NCBI GenBank assembly: GCA_013003425.1
Contig: JABDJB010000094.1
Span: 6,635-70,634, forward strand
Direction: 5' to 3'
DNA from: Gammaproteobacteria bacterium
GTDB lineage: Bacteria > Pseudomonadota > Gammaproteobacteria > Steroidobacterales > JABDKV01
Length of the DNA stretch: 64,000 nt
This document shows positions 28,402-56,351 of the stretch, piece after piece. Below the pieces are notes generated by a model. The model had not been told where the DNA came from and did not search any database. It was given only the letters and a program-made list of their open reading frames with translations. The translations under genes and the position numbers were made by a program. Each line of letters begins with the position of its first letter. The first letter of the stretch is position 1.

Positions 28402-28582
28402 GTGGGACCGGCATCCCGGTGGGACCGACATCCCGGTGGGAGCGGCATCCCGGTGGGAGCGGCATCTTGCCGCGATTACTTGCGACGATATCTCATGGGA
28501 CCGACATCCCGGTGGGACCGACATCCCGGTGGGACCGACATCCCGGTGGGAGCGGCATCTTGCCGCGATTACTTGCGATGAT
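28402..28582 (+). repeat. Higher-order tandem repeat of GTGGGA-type REP units
   Basis: Two ~93-bp blocks, each made of three 17-mers (GTGGGA[C/G]CG[A/G]CATCCCG) plus one full GTGGGAGCGGCATCTTGCCGCGATTACTTGCGA unit. Confidence 0.9.
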
Positions 28583-37869: not shown

Positions 37870-38589
37870 TTGGGCCACTCCAGCGAAAACCCGCGCCGGC
37901 CGCCCTGGCTGCCCGTGGTCGCTATGCTGCTGGTATTGCCACTATTGCTATATCTGGGCTTCTGGCAGCTGGATCGTGCCGGGCAGAAACAGGTGATGTT
38001 CGACCGCTTCGGTGCAGCCGAAGATGCATTGGACTTCAACGATGTCGCTGATCAGTCACCGGAATCGCTGCGCTACCGCAAGGTGCGACTACGCGGGCGT
38101 TATCTGCCGGAACGGCAGTTTCTGCTGGAAGGCATGTTTCACGAAAGTCGTCCGGGGCTGCACGTGCTCACGCCGCTGCAGCTGGCCGACGGCGCCGGGA
38201 TAGTGCTGGTCAATCGCGGCTGGATACCGGAAACACTCACACGGGAAACACGTCCCGACCTGTCCGTCGCAGGCAGCTGGGGTGATATACAGGGTCGGGT
38301 AGTGCCGTATCCACAGCCCGGCATGCGCCTTGGCGGCGAACCTGAGGAAGGCTGGCCGCAGCGAGTCGTTTATCCTACGCCGGCAGAAATTGCCGCAGCG
38401 CTGCAGACTGAAATTTTGCCGCACCTGATCTGGCTCGACTCCGCAGCTGCCGACGGATTTGTTCGCGCATGGAAGCCGGCGGAGTTCGGACCGGCACGGC
38501 ATATCGGATACGCCGTACAATGGTTTGCGCTGGCTTTCACGCTGATCCTTCTTTACATCATTTTTAAATTCCGCCGACACGATGACTGA
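37870..38589 (+). CDS. SURF1 family cytochrome oxidase biogenesis protein
   Basis: LGFWQLDRA, VLVNRGW, RHIGYAVQWF. Confidence 0.93.
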   Translation: MGHSSENPRRPPWLPVVAMLLVLPLLLYLGFWQLDRAGQKQVMFDRFGAAEDALDFNDVADQSPESLRYRKVRLRGRYLPERQFLLEGMFHESRPGLHVLTPLQLADGAGIVLVNRGWIPETLTRETRPDLSVAGSWGDIQGRVVPYPQPGMRLGGEPEEGWPQRVVYPTPAEIAAALQTEILPHLIWLDSAAADGFVRAWKPAEFGPARHIGYAVQWFALAFTLILLYIIFKFRRHDD

Positions 38590-39166
38590 GACAGCCGAAC
38601 ACCGTGGGCGTGGCACCCTGATTGCCATGGGGTTGCTGTTTATCGGCCCGCTTGCCCTGGCCTGGACGCTGTACCTGACCGGCGTGTGGCAGCCCGGCGC
38701 AGGCGCTAACCACGGCCAGCTGATTGAGCCGATTATCACTCTGCCGCGAGACGCACAGCCGCTGGCAGGCGGCGGTGTCAGCGAGGGCGGTTTTCTGTAC
38801 GGTCGCTGGACGCTGGTGCATTACCTGAACGGTGACTGCGACGAAAGCTGTGTTGCGGCAATCTACAAGACGCGGCAGGTCCGCATTGCGATGGGGCGAG
38901 AAACCGAGCGTATCGACCGCGTGCTGGTTTTACATGATGCGGCAGTGCCCGAGCTGGGTGCTGGCAGCGAAGAACTGTTGACAATATCGCCGGCCGGCAC
39001 AGCGGGTATGCAGATCGTCGACGCGTTGACCAAAAATGGTGGCAGCGAACGGATCTTCCTGGTTGATCCATTGGGTAACCTGATATTGAGTTATCCGCGC
39101 GATGGTGCGCCTGCTGATATACGCGACGACCTTAAGAAACTGCTGCGCTTGTCACGAATTGGTTAA
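38582..39166 (+). CDS. Membrane-anchored thioredoxin/SCO-like protein of cox clusters
   Basis: TM, NHGQLIEP, GRWTL, CDESC (CxxxC), FLVDPLGNLILSY, DLKKLLRLS. Confidence 0.75.
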   Translation: MTETAEHRGRGTLIAMGLLFIGPLALAWTLYLTGVWQPGAGANHGQLIEPIITLPRDAQPLAGGGVSEGGFLYGRWTLVHYLNGDCDESCVAAIYKTRQVRIAMGRETERIDRVLVLHDAAVPELGAGSEELLTISPAGTAGMQIVDALTKNGGSERIFLVDPLGNLILSYPRDGAPADIRDDLKKLLRLSRIG

Positions 39167-39319
39167 ACAAAAAAGCAGCGGTCTGATTCTGTAAAAAAGT
39201 TTTATTTTTCCAGACTGCAAAATTCATCACAGAAGTTTTCCCGTACTTTTCCTACACTGCATGCGCTGGTTGAGCAGAGACCGGTACCGCGAATAGCGAA
39301 GCGCAAGTCTGCTGACGTG

Positions 39320-39441
39320 AGGCCCACAGGGCGGCGAAAGCTGCGGCGTGGGCCTTACTGTTTTCAGGCGCGGCACAACTGCACACAGATCGTGGAGACC
39401 CACAGGGCGGCGCAAGCTGCGGCGTAGGGTCTTTTTTTTTT
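39320..39441 (+). ncRNA. Tandem structured cis-RNA candidate (two GNRA hairpins with a conserved 3x3 internal loop, the second followed by U10)
   Basis: AGGCCCAC-AGG-GCGGC-GAAA-GCTGC-GGC-GTGGGCCT (39320-39355) and AGACCCAC-AGG-GCGGC-GCAA-GCTGC-GGC-GTAGGGTCT (39396-39432); compensatory G-C to A-U change. Confidence 0.55.
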
Positions 39442-39454
39442 GGGAGAAGGGAAA

Positions 39455-40234
39455 GTGAAGAGACTGGAACGGGTGCTTGGAATTACTGTAGCGGCTGCAG
39501 CGCTGATGCTGGCCGGGCCGGCAGCGCATGCCAAGAAAGACAAAAAAGCCGGACCGAAGGTCGGGCAGACAGAGCGAGTCATTATCGACGACAGTCAGTG
39601 CTGGCCCGAAGTGGGCGCGTTATTCGACCAGGAAAGCAACACTGTCAGTGTCGAATCTGCCAAGGATCTGTCCAACGTCGTTCTGCTGTTCGCCGACGGC
39701 ACCACGCAGCGTTACGAAGGCCTCCACGGGCACGACGCTGTCTTCGCCGGCAGCGGTGAAAACACGGGTAAGGCATTGACCGGCGTGTGGATCAAGTCAG
39801 GTTGTAACCACAGCGGCGATGGCCCTGGCTATGGTCAATTTGTCGAGAATGCGACGAACATTACCGAGCTGCCGGTAATCAGCATCGGCGATGTGCCCGG
39901 AATCATTGAGCCACGGTTGTCGGAGATCGTCGAGGTGCTATTCGAGGTCTCATTGTCAGAGATGGTGCCGCTGGGCGGTGAGCCCGTAACCGTCAGCTAT
40001 GTTTCGCGCGACGGCACCGCCACTGCTGGTATGGACTACATCCCGGTTGAGGGCGTGCTGGTTTTCGAGCCGGGTCAGATTACCGCGACCATCTCTGTCA
40101 TAGTGTTTGATGACTACCGGATTGAGGCGTTCGAAGAGCTGTTCTACATTGATCTCAGCAGCCCGCAGAACGCCCTGCTGGCAAATCCGACCGGTACGGG
40201 GACGATCCTGGACGACGATCGCGACGATTTCTAA
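39455..40234 (+). CDS. Secreted protein with C-terminal Calx-beta domain
   Basis: Signal peptide ending AHA, unknown N-domain (SAKDLSNVVL...GVWIKSG), Calx-beta VTVSYVSRDGTATAGMDY...VFEPGQ...DD...E...TILDDD; GTG 39455 with purine-rich SD. Confidence 0.8.
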   Translation: MKRLERVLGITVAAAALMLAGPAAHAKKDKKAGPKVGQTERVIIDDSQCWPEVGALFDQESNTVSVESAKDLSNVVLLFADGTTQRYEGLHGHDAVFAGSGENTGKALTGVWIKSGCNHSGDGPGYGQFVENATNITELPVISIGDVPGIIEPRLSEIVEVLFEVSLSEMVPLGGEPVTVSYVSRDGTATAGMDYIPVEGVLVFEPGQITATISVIVFDDYRIEAFEELFYIDLSSPQNALLANPTGTGTILDDDRDDF

Positions 40235-40255
40235 GTAATAGATACAAAGTACAGG

Positions 40256-40291
40256 AACCGGGTCGGCCCCAATGGCCGGCCCGGTTTTTTT
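40256..40291 (+). terminator. Intrinsic terminator after the Calx-beta gene
   Basis: AACCGGGTCGGCC/GGCCGGCCCGGTT stem followed by a T-run. Confidence 0.75.
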
Positions 40292-40342
40292 ATTTCTGCC
40301 GGCCCTGATGCCGTACAATAGTCCGCTGGAAGCGGGGGCGTA

Positions 40343-40582
40343 ATGAGAAGAATCAGTGAGATTCCGAAGTGGACCCTGGCGCTGAATAGCGTAGGTACGC
40401 TGGCGCTGGGTCTGGGCGTTTACGCGATGTTTGTCGACGGCGCGCTGCTGGTGGCCGGGCTGGATCTGCGCGATTTTGCCTGGTGGCTGATTATTGGCGG
40501 GATCCTGCTGATGCTGCCGCTGCTCAGGGCGCTGTTCGGCAACAGGGACAACAACAACTTGATGCGAGGCTACCGTGGCTGA
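40343..40582 (+). CDS. Small 2-TM hypothetical protein
   Basis: 79 aa, two hydrophobic stretches, SD-like GGGG upstream, stop overlaps the cox15 start. Confidence 0.6.
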   Translation: MRRISEIPKWTLALNSVGTLALGLGVYAMFVDGALLVAGLDLRDFAWWLIIGGILLMLPLLRALFGNRDNNNLMRGYRG

Positions 40583-41564
40583 AACCTGGTTTCATCGTCT
40601 GGCGCTGCTGGGCACGATCGTGACGCTGGTAATTGTGATGTCAGGGGCCTGGGTGCGTCTCACTGACGCTGGTCTGGGCTGCCCTGACTGGCCGGGCTGC
40701 TACGGCCGGCTGACCCCGCCGGTCACAGCGCAGGATATTGCAGCGAGCAACGAAGCGTTTCCCGGCGCGCCGGTCGACACCGGCAAAGCATGGCGCGAAA
40801 TGGCGCATCGCTATGCCATTCCATTGCTCGGTCTGATCGTGATTTCGCTTGCCGCCATCGCCATTACAACCCGGCGTGACCCGCTGATGCCATTCTGGGC
40901 GCCATTGCTGCTGGTGCCGTTGCTGGGGTTGCAGGCGATTCTCGGTATGTTGACCGTGACGCTGCAGCTCAAACCAATCGTAGTGCTGGCACATCTGTTG
41001 GGCGGCATGACAACGCTGGCGTTGCTGGGGTGGATGATGCTGCTGACACGGCCGCGGCCGCCACGACTGCTGCCTGCCGATAGCGGTTTTCGTGGCGTGG
41101 CACTGCTGGCGCTGCTGGTGATCTTTGCGCAGGTAGCGCTGGGTGGCTGGACCAGCGCCAACTATGCTGCGGTAGCCTGCCCGGATTTTCCCACCTGCCA
41201 GACGCAATGGTGGCCGCCGGCTGATTTTGCTTCCGGTTTTGTTCCCTGGCGCGGCCTCGGGGCAGCAGGTGATGCCGATTCCACTGCACGCACGGCGATT
41301 CACCTGGGTCACCGGCTTGGTGCGCTGGTAACTTTGCTTGTTGCCGGCGGTATCGCGCTCGCCGCGGCGCTGCGTGGCCGCGACCGCGCAACGCGCTGGT
41401 CCGGGGCGGCGATACTGCTGCTGCTCTTCGGCCAGGTGGCGCTGGGAATAACCATTGTGCTCAAGGGCTTGCCGCTGGCAGGAGCGGTTGCCCATAACGG
41501 CATGGCAGCCTTGCTGGTACTGGCCGCAGTGAGCCTGAATCACGCTGCATGGCGCCAGGCCTGA
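40575..41564 (+). CDS. ctaA: Heme A synthase (COX15/CtaA family)
   Basis: GAWVRLTDAGLGCPDWPGCYG, EMAHR, AHLLGG, ACPDFPTC, HLGHR, AHNG. Confidence 0.93.
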   Translation: MAETWFHRLALLGTIVTLVIVMSGAWVRLTDAGLGCPDWPGCYGRLTPPVTAQDIAASNEAFPGAPVDTGKAWREMAHRYAIPLLGLIVISLAAIAITTRRDPLMPFWAPLLLVPLLGLQAILGMLTVTLQLKPIVVLAHLLGGMTTLALLGWMMLLTRPRPPRLLPADSGFRGVALLALLVIFAQVALGGWTSANYAAVACPDFPTCQTQWWPPADFASGFVPWRGLGAAGDADSTARTAIHLGHRLGALVTLLVAGGIALAAALRGRDRATRWSGAAILLLLFGQVALGITIVLKGLPLAGAVAHNGMAALLVLAAVSLNHAAWRQA

Positions 41565-41581
41565 ACCGTTATCCAGAGACC

Positions 41582-42475
41582 GTGACAGCAATAACCGCCA
41601 GTCGACACTTCCAGGACTACCTTGCGTTGTGCAAACCGCGCGTGGTGTCGATGATCGTTTTTACCGCCATGGTAGGGATGTTGTTGTCGACGCCAGGGCT
41701 GGTTTCATTACAGGCCTTCGTTTTCGGTTCCATCGGCATAGGACTGGCAGCGGCATCCGCAGCAGCAATCAATCATGTGCTCGATCGGCGTATCGACGAA
41801 CGGATGCGCCGTACTCGCCGCCGGCCACTGCCGCAAGGGGCACTGAACGAAAAGCAGGCGCTGAGTTTTGCCATGCTACTCGGCTTGCTCGCGATGATAC
41901 TGCTGGTTTGGCTGGTCAATCCGCTAACTGCATTGCTTACATTCGCATCACTTATCGGCTACGCGGTTATTTACACCGCGTTTCTCAAGCACGCTACGCC
42001 ACAAAATATAGTCATTGGCGGTGCCGCAGGGGCCGCACCGCCGGTGCTCGGCTGGACAGCGGTTACCGGCCAGATCGACCCGCATTCGTTGCTGCTTTTT
42101 CTGATCATATTTACCTGGACACCACCGCACTTCTGGGCGCTGGCAATCTCGCGCCGCGAGGAATATTCCAACGCCGGCGTGCCGATGCTGCCGGTGACGC
42201 ACGGCGAGGCATTTACCCGTCTGCACATTCTGCTCTACACGCTGTTGCTGGTTCTGGTCAGCCTGTTGCCATACCTCACCGGTATGAGTGGCCTTGTGTA
42301 TCTGGCTGGCACGGTAATTCTCGATGCCGGCTTTCTCTATTACGCTATTGCTTTGAAGTTCCGCCCTCGGGTCGAGCTGCCGATGCAGACTTTTGCTTAC
42401 TCTCTTACCTACCTTGCCGGTATTTTCCTGCTGCTGCTCGGCGATCACTACGTGCAGCTTGTATTGCCGGCATGA
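41582..42475 (+). CDS. cyoE: Protoheme IX farnesyltransferase (heme O synthase)
   Basis: YLALCKPRVV, DRRIDERMRRT.RRPLP, LKHATPQNIVIGG.AGA, WTPPHFWAL, EEYSNAG.PMLPV; start GTG 41582 (or 41549). Confidence 0.96.
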   Translation: MTAITASRHFQDYLALCKPRVVSMIVFTAMVGMLLSTPGLVSLQAFVFGSIGIGLAAASAAAINHVLDRRIDERMRRTRRRPLPQGALNEKQALSFAMLLGLLAMILLVWLVNPLTALLTFASLIGYAVIYTAFLKHATPQNIVIGGAAGAAPPVLGWTAVTGQIDPHSLLLFLIIFTWTPPHFWALAISRREEYSNAGVPMLPVTHGEAFTRLHILLYTLLLVLVSLLPYLTGMSGLVYLAGTVILDAGFLYYAIALKFRPRVELPMQTFAYSLTYLAGIFLLLLGDHYVQLVLPA

Positions 42476-43437
42476 AGGCCACGACATTTGTCCTGCTCGC
42501 AGCCGCCGCAGCCGTTGTGGTGCTGGTGGTCTATGCGCTGCGGGAGCCGGCGCCATCATCAGTGCCTGCAGCCAGTCCGCCGCCATTACCGTCACGGGCT
42601 GTGGATGAATCGCCGCCGCCGGTGGCGGATATCGAGCCAGTTGCCGAGCCAGAGCCCGAGGGAGTCGACGAGGCGCTCCCGGAGATAGTGAGCGGCGCGG
42701 AACTCAATGCGTTGTTACAGCAATACGGCATCGGCCGGCTGGAGGGGCAGTGGCGCGAGTGGGCGATGAGTCGCGGCTTCCCGGTTCCGGCAGGCAGCGA
42801 CGGCTATGCCTATGAGCAGCCTTACGACCAGTACGATGACGAAACGCTGCGCGGCCTGGCCGATAACGGCGATATGTGGGCGCAACAGATGCTGGCAAAA
42901 CGTATCTCCCGCACCAACCCTGCCGAAGCCATCGAATTGTATCGCGAGGCAGCAATCCGTGGCTCGGTTTATGCGATGAGTGAGATGGCAAACCTGTTCG
43001 CCCGGATATCGGACAAGCGGCGCGAGGTGGAATTCAAGTCGCAGGACCTGGCGCTGGAGCAGGTATACGCCATGCGCGATGCGCCTGTCTCACCGGAGGT
43101 CTCCGGCTACGCATGGACCGCAGTGGCAGCAATGGCTGGTACCGAACCGATGTTTGGAAATATCGCCGCGACGCAGCTGTCGCGGCAGCTCAGCGACGAG
43201 CAAAAGGACGAAGCGTGTTCGATAGCAAGCGGCATGTACGATGAAATACGGCAGCGCCGGCAGGCGCTCGGGCTGGGTGACTATGACCGCAGCCCACCGC
43301 CAATCGTGTACTGGGATCAGGCTGCCACCGAGGTGTGCCCGGGCCAGGCGCCAAGCCTCGACCTTTCGGGGTGTCGGGAGATGCAGATTGAAGAAGATGG
43401 CGACAACAGCTCGGTCTGGCTGTGTGGCGACGAATAG
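42472..43437 (+). CDS. Hypothetical membrane-anchored protein with SEL1/TPR-like helices
   Basis: ATG overlaps cyoE stop; TM anchor, Pro/Glu-rich linker, LADNGDMWAQ..LA / AIELYREAAIRGSVYA repeats; only the 3' part of the 602-aa ORF-track ORF is credible. Confidence 0.65.
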   Translation: MKATTFVLLAAAAAVVVLVVYALREPAPSSVPAASPPPLPSRAVDESPPPVADIEPVAEPEPEGVDEALPEIVSGAELNALLQQYGIGRLEGQWREWAMSRGFPVPAGSDGYAYEQPYDQYDDETLRGLADNGDMWAQQMLAKRISRTNPAEAIELYREAAIRGSVYAMSEMANLFARISDKRREVEFKSQDLALEQVYAMRDAPVSPEVSGYAWTAVAAMAGTEPMFGNIAATQLSRQLSDEQKDEACSIASGMYDEIRQRRQALGLGDYDRSPPPIVYWDQAATEVCPGQAPSLDLSGCREMQIEEDGDNSSVWLCGDE

Positions 43438-55961: not shown

Positions 55962-55975
55962 CTTCCTCCTGCCTG

Positions 55976-56238
55976 CACGAGCGGCTTTAGCCGCGAAGCC
56001 GGGACAGGCTCATGCGGCAATTAACCGGGTTGCGGGATTATCCTCAGCATGGTTAACACGCGGGATTATGCGGGGCGCGCGTTATCCGGTCAGTAGCGGT
56101 TGAGCTACATCGGCCATGGCGAGGTGAGCTCCAACCGCAGTTGTAGTACCAGCCAGTTCGCGCCTGGGCGCTCCTACACGCGGTGTTGCACCCGACGCGG
56201 GATTTCCTCGTGCCTGTAGGAGCGGCTTCAGTCGCGAA
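55976..56238. repeat. GTAG-type REP cluster
   Basis: CACGAGCGGCTTTAGCCGCGAAG (55976-55998), reverse TGTAGGAGCGCCCAGGCGCGAA (56157-56178), TGTAGGAGCGGCTTCAGTCGCGAA (56215-56238). Confidence 0.75.
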
Positions 56239-56351
56239 CATCAAACTCTCGTCAGGCGTTTGGTCTGCCTGCAGGGGCGGAGGTCTTTGAGTCGCCGGGC
56301 ACCTGAGCGACCAGTCGCGAATCACCGCACCGTTTAATCACAGGGCCGAGC

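What the first reader, a model, noticed from the sequence alone, without database searches (positions are those of the whole stretch)
39320..39441. Tandem covarying GNRA-hairpin RNA motif with terminal U10 in the leader of a Calx-beta gene
Seen: two 36-37-nt copies 76 nt apart share an outer stem, an invariant 3x3 internal loop (AGG/GGC), a 5-bp stem and a GNRA tetraloop (GAAA versus GCAA). The outer stem shows a compensatory G-C to A-U swap. Copy 2 runs straight into ten Ts and then the SD and start codon; copy 1 is followed by TACTGTTTT. Known: covariation and GNRA retention indicate selection on RNA structure, and the A.C/G.G/G.G loop resembles the SRP helix-8 symmetric loop (A.C, G.G, G.A). 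Inference: an undescribed tandem attenuator, riboswitch or protein-binding leader controlling a secreted Ca2+-binding protein. I cannot match it to a family I know.
Basis: partly seen in the sequence, partly recalled or inferred. Interest (0 to 1): 0.8.

Follow-up and report, generated by a model that had tools for sequence, protein, structure and literature searches.

The report
Tandem terminator hairpins in Calx-beta leader
A previously undescribed structured RNA leader, made of two or three near-identical terminator-like hairpins with an invariant internal loop, sits between a CRP-type promoter and the start codon of one family of secreted Calx-beta proteins in uncultured marine-sediment Gammaproteobacteria; it most likely gates expression of that gene by transcription attenuation.

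Summary
Hairpins at 39320-39355 and 39396-39432 have an 8-bp outer stem, an AGG/GGC internal loop, a 5-bp inner stem and a tetraloop. The second runs into T10, then the SD and GTG 39455.

- **Not a genome-wide repeat or generic terminator.** The genome holds four copies, at two loci, each directly upstream of a paralogue of one gene family (signal peptide, unnamed domain, Calx-beta).
- **Distribution.** I found 17 loci with 2-3 copies each, always before this family. About 800 other Gammaproteobacteria genomes have none. No Rfam family matches.
- **Structure.** Over 34 copies, 98% of pair cells pair and six pairs show compensatory changes. CCCA(C), the loop (A)GG/RGC and GUGGG do not vary, which implies sequence-specific recognition.
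- **Loop.** The apical loop is usually GNNA but is not conserved.
- **Promoter.** A conserved TGnGA-N6-TCACa site lies exactly 21 nt before a TAnnnT -10 box. This is class II CRP geometry and places the hairpins in a ~190-nt 5' leader, which also has a covarying 5' hairpin.

Best reading: a factor-dependent transcription attenuator whose factor is unidentified. A riboswitch, a leader sRNA or an insulator remain possible. The SRP helix-8 resemblance is real at loop level only. No expression data exist.

The parts
39216..39231 (+). CRP/Vfr-type site TGCAA-AATTCA-TCACA, centred about -41.5
   Evidence: Conserved as TGnGA-N6-TCACa in 12 aligned type-1 loci (the C115 paralogue has the perfect TGTGA-N6-TCACA). 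It lies exactly 21 nt (22 in C115) before the -10 box. Two CRP homologues are in the genome. Function is inferred.
39253..39258 (+). -10 box TACACT (TAnnnT); predicted transcription start about 39264
   Evidence: T1, A2 and T6 are invariant in 12 loci; variants are TAAGCT, TATAAT, TAGAAT and TAAGAT. The simple sigma-70 scan did not call it because there is no -35, as expected for a class II activator-dependent promoter.
39265..39285 (+). P0: 5'-terminal leader hairpin with conserved loop uGnGCAGAg
   Evidence: In the RNAalifold consensus it has 7 pairs, 3 of them with compensatory double changes across 11 loci.
39317..39358 (+). Hairpin 1 (core 39320-39355; flanks GUG/UAC extend the stem); poor U-tract (CCUUACUGUUUU)
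   Evidence: CM score 62-66 bits.
39377..39384 (+). AACUGCAC box upstream of hairpin 2
   Evidence: Conserved in most type-1 loci and in further relatives in sediment metagenomes. Role unknown.
39392..39397 (+). GUGGAG box abutting hairpin 2 (possible alternative partner of the CCAC arm)
   Evidence: Present before about half of the 34 copies. It reads GUAG where the arm is CCUAC. The enforced alternative fold is 4.3 kcal/mol above the MFE.
39396..39432 (+). Hairpin 2, the terminator-type copy
   Evidence: CM score 59-64 bits.
39432..39441 (+). U10 tract
   Evidence: The last hairpin of every locus is followed by a run of about 6-10 U, in a few loci interrupted by one base.
39442..39457 (+). 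Shine-Dalgarno GGGAG and GTG start codon (39455)
39455..40234 (+). Regulated gene: secreted protein with a signal peptide, an unnamed CWPEV...GVWIKSGCN domain and a Calx-beta domain
40253..40289 (+). Canonical intrinsic terminator closing the cassette
   Evidence: 16-bp stem followed by a T run.

Best explanation
The two hairpins are repeated cis-acting elements of a ~190-nt 5' leader RNA. The leader is transcribed from a class II CRP/Vfr-type promoter (site at -41.5, -10 box TACACT) and ends at the SD of a monocistronic gene for a secreted Calx-beta protein. The last hairpin is a strong GC-rich stem followed by about 6-10 U, in a few loci interrupted by one base, so it should act as an intrinsic terminator immediately before the ribosome-binding site. 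The upstream copy or copies carry the same invariant core. I propose a transcription attenuator. By default most transcripts stop at the hairpin(s). An unidentified trans-acting factor, more likely a protein than a small ligand, recognises the invariant internal loop and its flanking CCCAC/GUGGG pairs on each copy and sets how much read-through reaches the gene. This would add a second input to cAMP-CRP control.

- Shown: the structure, its covariation, its exclusive association with this gene family, and the conserved promoter geometry.
- Inferred: termination, regulated read-through, and the nature of the factor.
For: **Specificity**
- There are only 4 copies in the 3.27-Mb genome, at two loci (C51 = window; C115). 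Both lie directly 5' of paralogous genes that are 34% identical.
- The hairpin 3' strand GAAAGCUGC-R-GCGUGGG is otherwise identical between these two loci.
- All close homologues with upstream DNA carry the motif; 17 loci in total.
- True hits occur in 5 of 401 genomes of the order; the weaker listed hits that I inspected were in coding sequence or had no U-tract. Apart from the window's own genome, none of 400 class-wide genomes scored (321 genera) has a hit.
- Two family members without the motif also lack the gene.

**RNA structure**
- Across 34 copies, 98.1% of cells pair; register-shifted controls give 22-54%.
- Six pairs show double changes in 42 cells, and 0 of 500 shuffles reach the covariation score.

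**More than a terminator**
- C10, C11, A13, G17, G18, C40, R41, G42, C43, G44, U46, G48 and G49 are invariant, while distal pairs covary.
- In the C51 subgroup hairpin 1 keeps this core although its U-tract has decayed.

**Leader position**
- The CRP-like site lies exactly 21 nt before TAnnnT in 12 loci, and 22 nt before it with a perfect TGTGA-N6-TCACA in C115.
- CRP homologues are present, at 56% and 46% identity to E. coli CRP.
- The P0 hairpin covaries.
- The last hairpin's U-tract lies only about 0-5 nt from the SD in every locus, leaving no room for another promoter.
Against: - There is no transcript data, so neither the start site nor termination nor read-through is shown.
- No convincing antiterminator structure exists. 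The only candidate (GUGG box with the CCAC arm) is 4 bp, is absent from the second subfamily, and its enforced fold still ends in a helix before the U-tract.
- No conserved neighbouring regulator gene was seen.
- The simple terminator scan does not call the hairpins because of the internal loop.
- All sequences come from a narrow lineage, so many copies share descent and the number of independent compensatory events is modest.
Confidence: 0.5

Rival explanations
1. Small-molecule riboswitch: each hairpin is a minimal aptamer embedded in a terminator stem, arranged in tandem for a cooperative or digital response. The ligand binds in the conserved internal loop.
For: - Invariant internal-loop nucleotides sit within covarying stems.
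- Known riboswitches do use tandem, similar, simple bulged stem-loops. The nadA/NAD+-I riboswitch has two similar tandemly arrayed domains (PMC6859854, PMC7708056), and tandem architectures are reviewed in PMC9481103. Guanidine-II uses two small hairpins (own knowledge).
- The motif is associated with a single gene family.
Against: - The regulated gene is a secreted structural or adhesin-like protein, not an enzyme or transporter that would suggest a ligand.
- The loop is only 3x3 or 2x4 nt.
- The two subfamilies differ in loop geometry.
- No alternative expression-platform fold was found.
- No Rfam riboswitch matches.
Confidence: 0.15
2. Constitutive terminators: the promoter plus leader is really a CRP-dependent small RNA gene (about 100 to 180 nt, with P0 carrying a seed loop), or the hairpins insulate the cassette from upstream read-through. 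The Calx gene would be expressed only by leak-through.
For: - The arrangement is a strong promoter-proximal structure followed by a canonical terminator.
- The conserved single-stranded P0 loop uGnGCAGAg looks like an sRNA seed.
- In the window the upstream cox genes have no other terminator before the hairpins.
Against: - A plain terminator does not need an invariant internal loop, invariant flanking pairs or 2-3 copies.
- Hairpin 1 is conserved even where its U-tract has decayed.
- The leader always travels with this gene family whatever lies upstream.
- The SD lies within a few nucleotides of the U-tract in every locus.
Confidence: 0.17
3. SRP-RNA mimic: the CAGG/RGCG loop copies the helix-8 symmetric loop and binds Ffh (SRP54 M domain). 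This would link expression or localisation of the mRNA of a signal-peptide protein to the SRP.
For: - The loop gives A.C, G.G and G.R juxtapositions. The SRP symmetric loop has a universally conserved A-C pair and an adjacent G-G/A pair that contact SRP54 (PMC4605306).
- The same-genus SRP RNA reads UCAGA-CCC-GGAA-GGG-AGCAG, against CAGG-GCGGC-GNNA-GCUGC-RGCG here.
- All downstream genes encode signal peptides.
Against: - There is no asymmetric loop, which SRP54 also contacts (PMC4605306).
- The inner stem is 5 bp, not 3.
- The second subfamily has a 2x4 loop.
- The SRP covariance model gives no hit even at E<=10.
- Sec-type signal peptides are ubiquitous, so the association is weak.
Confidence: 0.04
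4. Selfish REP/BIME-like repeat, or a DNA-level palindromic operator, with no RNA-level role.
For: - Many copies are preceded by GTGG or GTAG, the head typical of REPs.
- The genome's own REPs (GT[GA]GGAGCGGC-loop-GCCGCGA) share the GCGGC/GCYGC stem.
- Copy number varies from 2 to 3.
Against: - There are only 4 copies per genome, all in one orientation and all 5' of one gene family, conserved at orthologous and paralogous sites across families of the order.
- U-tracts lie on one strand only.
- The conserved mismatches are asymmetric (AGG against GGC), which a symmetric DNA operator would not keep.
- Compensatory changes occur in stem positions that a DNA-binding protein would read directly.
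Confidence: 0.04

Closest known systems
Intrinsic-terminator attenuators in 5' leaders controlled by RNA-binding proteins (for example the Bgl/Sac RAT-terminator and PyrR or TRAP leaders; own knowledge)
   Same: A promoter-proximal leader with a GC-rich hairpin and U-tract immediately before the regulated gene. Conserved nucleotides within or next to the terminator suggest a factor-binding site.
   Different: No overlapping antiterminator element was found. The recognition element is the terminator hairpin itself, repeated 2-3 times. No cognate regulator gene lies nearby. The lineage is uncultured Woeseia-like Gammaproteobacteria.
Tandem-domain riboswitches built from similar simple stem-loops (nadA/NAD+-I, PMC6859854, PMC7708056; guanidine-II, own knowledge)
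   Same: Two similar bulged stem-loops in tandem upstream of a single gene family. The conserved nucleotides sit in internal loops and the stems covary.
   Different: The sequence and loop are different and there is no Rfam match. Each unit is itself a terminator. The gene regulated gives no hint of a ligand.
SRP RNA helix 8 symmetric loop (RF00169)
   Same: 5'-(C)AGG / RGC(G)-3' gives A.C, G.G and G.R juxtapositions under a short stem capped by a GNNA loop.
   Different: There is no asymmetric loop, the inner stem is longer, the context is mRNA, and the element is not recognised by the SRP model.
Class II CRP-dependent promoters (site centred at -41.5; own knowledge)
   Same: TGnGA-N6-TCACa lies 21 nt upstream of TAnnnT with no -35 box. 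This geometry is conserved in 13 loci.
   Different: Not tested biochemically. The regulator could be either of two CRP-family paralogues in this genome, including a Clp/Vfr-like one.
REP/BIME elements
   Same: A GT[AG]G head and a GC-rich imperfect palindrome in tandem copies.
   Different: Four copies rather than hundreds, a fixed orientation and gene association, and U-tracts.

Membership tests
Any Rfam 15 family (including GEMM/c-di-GMP-I, nadA, mini-ykkC, SRP) | Covariance-model match | tested here: not met
   cmscan at E<=10 over window 38500-40500 gave only chance snoRNA-type hits outside the hairpins. At E<=1 over five related loci there was no relevant hit.
Intrinsic (Rho-independent) terminator | GC-rich stem immediately followed by a U-tract | tested here: met
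   Hairpin 2 has an 8-bp outer stem adjoining U10, with dG -19 to -25 kcal/mol. The last copy in all 17 loci has a U-rich tail of about 6-10 U, in a few loci interrupted by one base. The simple scan misses it because of the internal loop. Actual termination is not testable here.
Intrinsic (Rho-independent) terminator | Located at gene or operon 3' ends, with sequence not conserved beyond structure | tested here: not met
   The motif is always 5' of one gene family and has an invariant core.
SRP RNA helix 8 | Symmetric loop with an A-C pair and an adjacent G-G/A pair | tested here: met
   AGG/RGC is present in 25 of 34 copies. The defining description is from PMC4605306. This is a sequence-level match only.
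SRP RNA helix 8 | Asymmetric loop below the symmetric loop; overall model match | tested here: not met
   The outer stem is a continuous helix. There is no RF00169 hit.
REP/BIME | High copy number dispersed in intergenic regions, in both orientations | tested here: not met
   There are 4 copies at 2 loci in 3.27 Mb. The genome's real REPs are a different sequence family.
ANTAR-type dual-hairpin antiterminator target | Two small hairpins with hexaloops (A1, G4), the second overlapping a terminator | tested here: not met
   Loops are mostly tetraloops of variable sequence, and the hairpins are themselves the terminators. The defining features are from own knowledge.
Riboswitch (generic) | Ligand-dependent structural change | not testable with these tools
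   Needs in-line probing or reporter assays.
Class II CRP-dependent promoter | CRP consensus half-sites TGTGA-N6-TCACA centred near -41.5 relative to a -10 box; CRP present in the genome | tested here: met
   Found in 13 loci with 0-3 mismatches, with G2, A5 and CAC invariant and a fixed 21-22-nt gap to TAnnnT. CRP homologues lie at C19 and C36. Binding and activation are not testable here.

The most novel reading that the evidence does not exclude
The hairpins are a new class of regulatory RNA in which the terminator stem itself is the sensor. One version is a minimal tandem riboswitch. The most unusual version is an SRP helix-8 mimic that recruits Ffh, so that synthesis of a secreted protein is gated by free SRP. 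In either version the repeated invariant loop is the ligand or protein site, and the number of repeats (2-3) tunes the response.
Probability: 0.15. Interest if true: 0.85.

Novelty: new variant of a known kind. Interest (0 to 1): 0.6.

Why it matters
It adds a well-supported orphan cis-regulatory RNA motif with covariation, strict gene association and a defined promoter. The motif comes from the abundant but poorly studied Woeseia-like bacteria of marine sediments and beach sand.

Its architecture is unusual. The conserved recognition element is the terminator hairpin itself, it is present in 2-3 copies, and it combines with cAMP-CRP-type promoter control of a secreted Ca2+-binding (Calx-beta) protein that may act as an adhesin or matrix component.

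Identifying the factor that reads the invariant loop would reveal either a new RNA-binding regulator or a very small riboswitch. The SRP-like loop offers a concrete, cheap hypothesis to test.

Tried and rejected
- **Genome-wide repeat or terminator:** rejected by pattern, regex and CM searches of the whole genome.
- **Known RNA family:** rejected.
- **Weak CM hits elsewhere in the order:** the ones I inspected (G188, G023, G310, G095) lie in coding sequence or lack a U-tract or the gene context, so they are false positives. The remaining low-scoring hits were not examined.
- **Metagenome pattern scan:** 19 stretches were returned, but only 2 are real (one is the G001 contig, the other is L060). 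The rest lack the inner hairpin.
- **Leader peptide:** a 38-codon GTG frame runs through both hairpins in the window. However, stem changes in relatives are non-synonymous and the second subfamily is frame-shifted by 2 nt, so this was rejected (sequence inspection).
- **RfaH ops element (GGCGGTAG-like) inside the hairpin:** only 10 of 34 copies have the key T, so rejected.
- **G-quadruplex from the GGG runs:** the 5' GGG is not invariant, so this is unlikely.
- **Antiterminator GUGG:CCAC:** modelled, found weak, and it still ends in a helix before the U-tract.
- **SRP RNA of the own genome for direct comparison:** not found in this MAG. I used same-genus G003 instead.
- **Population variants from DNA runs:** these showed only further relatives of the unit, with no informative SNPs.

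Full report
**1. The observation**

Reading 38900-39800 shows two hairpins exactly as described.

- Copy 1, 39320-39355: AGGCCCAC/AGG/GCGGC/GAAA/GCTGC/GGC/GTGGGCCT.
- Copy 2, 39396-39432: AGACCCAC/AGG/GCGGC/GCAA/GCTGC/GGC/GT(A)GGGTCT.
- They lie 76 nt apart.
- Copy 2 runs into ten T (39432-39441), then GGGAG (39442-46) and GTG at 39455.

The 27-nt core occurs only at these two places in the window even with three mismatches allowed, against 0 expected from shuffles. RNAfold returns both hairpins as the minimum-energy structure, with z = -3.8. Alone, they fold at -25.2 and -19.3 kcal/mol. The ORF 39455-40234 has a signal peptide and a Calx-beta domain.

**2. Context**

The gene sits inside an aa3 cytochrome oxidase cluster. 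COX1, CtaG, COX3, DUF2909, SURF1 and a PA0111-family protein lie upstream, and COX15 lies downstream. The gene has its own strong terminator at 40253-40289.

**3. Not a generic repeat**

The window is C51:6635-70634 of a 3.27-Mb, 115-contig MAG.

- Pattern, regex and covariance-model searches of the whole genome find only four copies: the two in the window and a diverged adjacent pair at C115:3515-3598 on the minus strand.
- That pair reads CCCA-UG-GUGGC-GAAA-GCUGC-AGCG-UGGG + UUUUUCGUUU, with a 44-nt period. It ends 8 nt before the SD and ATG of a 414-aa protein.
- That protein is a paralogue of the window gene, 34% identical, with the same unnamed domain (C[WL]PEV...LLFxDG...GVW[IV][KR]SGCN) and a Calx-beta domain.
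- Despite this protein divergence, the hairpin 3' strand GAAAGCUGC-R-GCGUGGG is otherwise identical between the two loci.

**4. Relatives**

- Same-genus MAGs G001 (same cox locus) and G002 (different flanking genes, same gene family) have two copies each.
- G066 has three copies with a 45-nt period.
- G075 and a metagenome contig (L060) have two copies with an inner stem GCGAU/AUCGC.
- I fetched contigs for the closest protein homologues. Every one with upstream DNA carries the motif: L074-L080, L087, L089, and L088, which is cut inside hairpin 2. L087 has a third, single copy before a second Calx-type gene.
- Distant homologues of the N-domain in Bacteroidota and Planctomycetota, and also L081, have none.
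- In a model search of 401 genomes of the order, the five genomes above scored far above the rest. The weaker hits I inspected were in coding sequence or lacked a U-tract and the gene context.
- Apart from the window's own genome, none of 400 class-wide genomes scored (321 genera) has a hit at E<=1e-4; one further genome could not be scored.
- The two family members without the motif (G003, G004) also lack the gene.
- Two AT-rich gammaproteobacterial MAGs keep a single degenerate version, AAGCCCAC-AG-CGAC...GUCG-AGC-GUGGGCUU + U-tract, about 235 nt upstream of their homologue.
- Beach-sand and marine-sediment runs hold further relatives of the unit.
- One homologue is labelled Woeseia sp..

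**5. Structure and conservation**

On 34 copies from 16 loci (alignment A11):

- 98.1% of pair cells are standard pairs, against 22-54% when the partner is slid by 1-3 columns.
- Six of 13 pairs show changes on both sides, in 42 cells, and 0 of 500 shuffles reach the covariation score.
- Distal outer pairs alternate GC and AU. The inner-stem apex alternates CG, UA and AU.
- By contrast, C10, C11, A13, G17, G18, C40, R41, G42, C43, G44, U46, G48 and G49 never vary.

These invariant positions are the internal loop, (C)AGG against RGC(G), plus the five pairs below it. The second subfamily lacks two 5' nucleotides, giving GG or UG against AGCG. The apical loop is usually GNNA but also occurs as ACAA, a triloop or 5-8 nt, so it is not a conserved GNRA.

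Invariant helix positions next to freely covarying ones imply sequence-specific recognition, not mere hairpin stability. In the window's subgroup hairpin 1 keeps the core although its U-tract has decayed (CCUUACUG, CCUUCUUGUAU). The hairpin is therefore more than a terminator.

**6. It is a leader**

Aligning about 330 nt upstream of 12 type-1 loci shows three conserved features.

- A site TGnGA-N6-TCACa lies exactly 21 nt before a TAnnnT hexamer (TACACT, TAAGCT, TATAAT, TAGAAT, TAAGAT) in all 12.
- C115 has the perfect TGTGA-N6-TCACA 22 nt before TAAACT.
- With the -10 box at -12 to -7, the site centre falls at about -41.5. This is the textbook class II CRP arrangement (own knowledge), and it explains the missing -35 box.

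The genome encodes two CRP homologues, 56% and 46% identical to E. coli CRP. In the window the site is 39216-39231, the -10 box is 39253-39258, and the predicted start is about 39264.

RNAalifold on the transcribed part recovers three helices: a 5' hairpin P0 (39265-39285, 3 of 7 pairs with double changes, conserved loop uGnGCAGAg), hairpin 1 and hairpin 2.

Each type-1 unit also carries an AACUGCAC box and, in about half the copies, aGUGGAg abutting the hairpin. Where the 5' arm is CCUAC, the box reads GUAG, which is compatible with an alternative GUGG:CCAC pairing. That pairing is only 4 bp. When it is enforced, the fold is 4.3 kcal/mol above the MFE and still ends in a helix before the U-tract. 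The box is also absent from the second subfamily. I leave these boxes unexplained.

**7. Mechanism**

Shown:
- a conserved promoter;
- a structured leader;
- two to three copies of a hairpin with an invariant core, the last one with a U-rich tail of about 6-10 U (interrupted by one base in a few loci) lying about 0-5 nt from the SD, in all loci.

Inferred:
- the last hairpin terminates most transcripts;
- a factor that reads the invariant loop on each copy sets the level of read-through, adding a second input to cAMP-CRP control;
- the U-tract next to the SD may also help translation of read-through mRNA.

I favour a protein factor, because the elements are simple, repeated and sequence-invariant, and because no alternative fold was found. 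The rivals are listed separately with their evidence: a minimal tandem riboswitch (precedents are the nadA tandem domains, PMC6859854 and PMC7708056, and the tandem architectures in PMC9481103), a CRP-dependent leader sRNA or insulator, an SRP mimic, and a REP-like or DNA-level element.

**8. Comparison with known systems**

- No Rfam 15 family matches the window region or five related leaders.
- The SRP resemblance is real at loop level. SRP helix 8 has a universally conserved A-C pair and an adjacent G-G/A pair contacting SRP54 (PMC4605306). The same-genus SRP RNA reads UCAGA-CCC-GGAA-GGG-AGCAG.
- However, the asymmetric loop is absent, the inner stem is longer, one subfamily has a 2x4 loop, and the SRP model gives no hit. 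Membership is rejected and mimicry is only a low-probability lead.
- The genome's true REPs are a different sequence family.

**9. Verdict**

This is a genuine, undescribed cis-regulatory RNA motif of narrow distribution. It is best classed as a new variant of leader attenuator or riboswitch-like element. The main gap is the total lack of transcript or biochemical data.

Noticed in passing
G000 whole genome; G003:C15:6628-6724: The SRP RNA (RF00169) is not detectable in this MAG or in same-genus G001 and G002, although it is present in G003 and other relatives. This is probably an assembly gap.
   Followed up: partly
window 28402-28582 and about 55975-56240: REP elements of the type GT[GA]GGAGCGGC-loop-GCCGCGA, one of them in a two-level tandem array. 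They share the GTGG head and the GCGGC stem with the leader hairpins but are a distinct family.
   Followed up: partly
window 39590-39850 (protein residues about 46-130): The unnamed N-domain of the Calx-beta protein is 55-65% identical to the C-terminal part of many TadG-like Flp-pilus proteins (PF09977 + PF13400). It also occurs in Crocinitomicaceae and Planctomycetaceae proteins.
   Followed up: no
G000 C19:20727-21329 and C36:99532-100122: Two CRP-family paralogues (56% and 46% identity to E. coli CRP). Either could serve the conserved TGnGA-N6-TCACa site.
   Followed up: no
window 40253-40289: A strong canonical terminator (16-bp stem, T run) closes the Calx-beta cassette before COX15, so the cox cluster is split into separate transcription units here.
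   Followed up: no
L087:4439-4479: In a type-2 relative a third, single hairpin copy (inner stem GUGG/CCAC, weak U-tract) sits between the first gene and a second Calx-type gene. The corresponding spacer in C115 lacks it.
   Followed up: partly
L060:1718-2938; G075 C361/C371: The homologue in this lineage carries a run of about 100 residues of Ser-Asp repeats, which breaks the G075 assembly into two contigs.
   Followed up: no
window 41549-43437: Two long overlapping ORFs in different frames: 41549-42475 (308 aa) and 41629-43437 (602 aa, no Pfam hit). I did not resolve which of them is the real gene.
   Followed up: no
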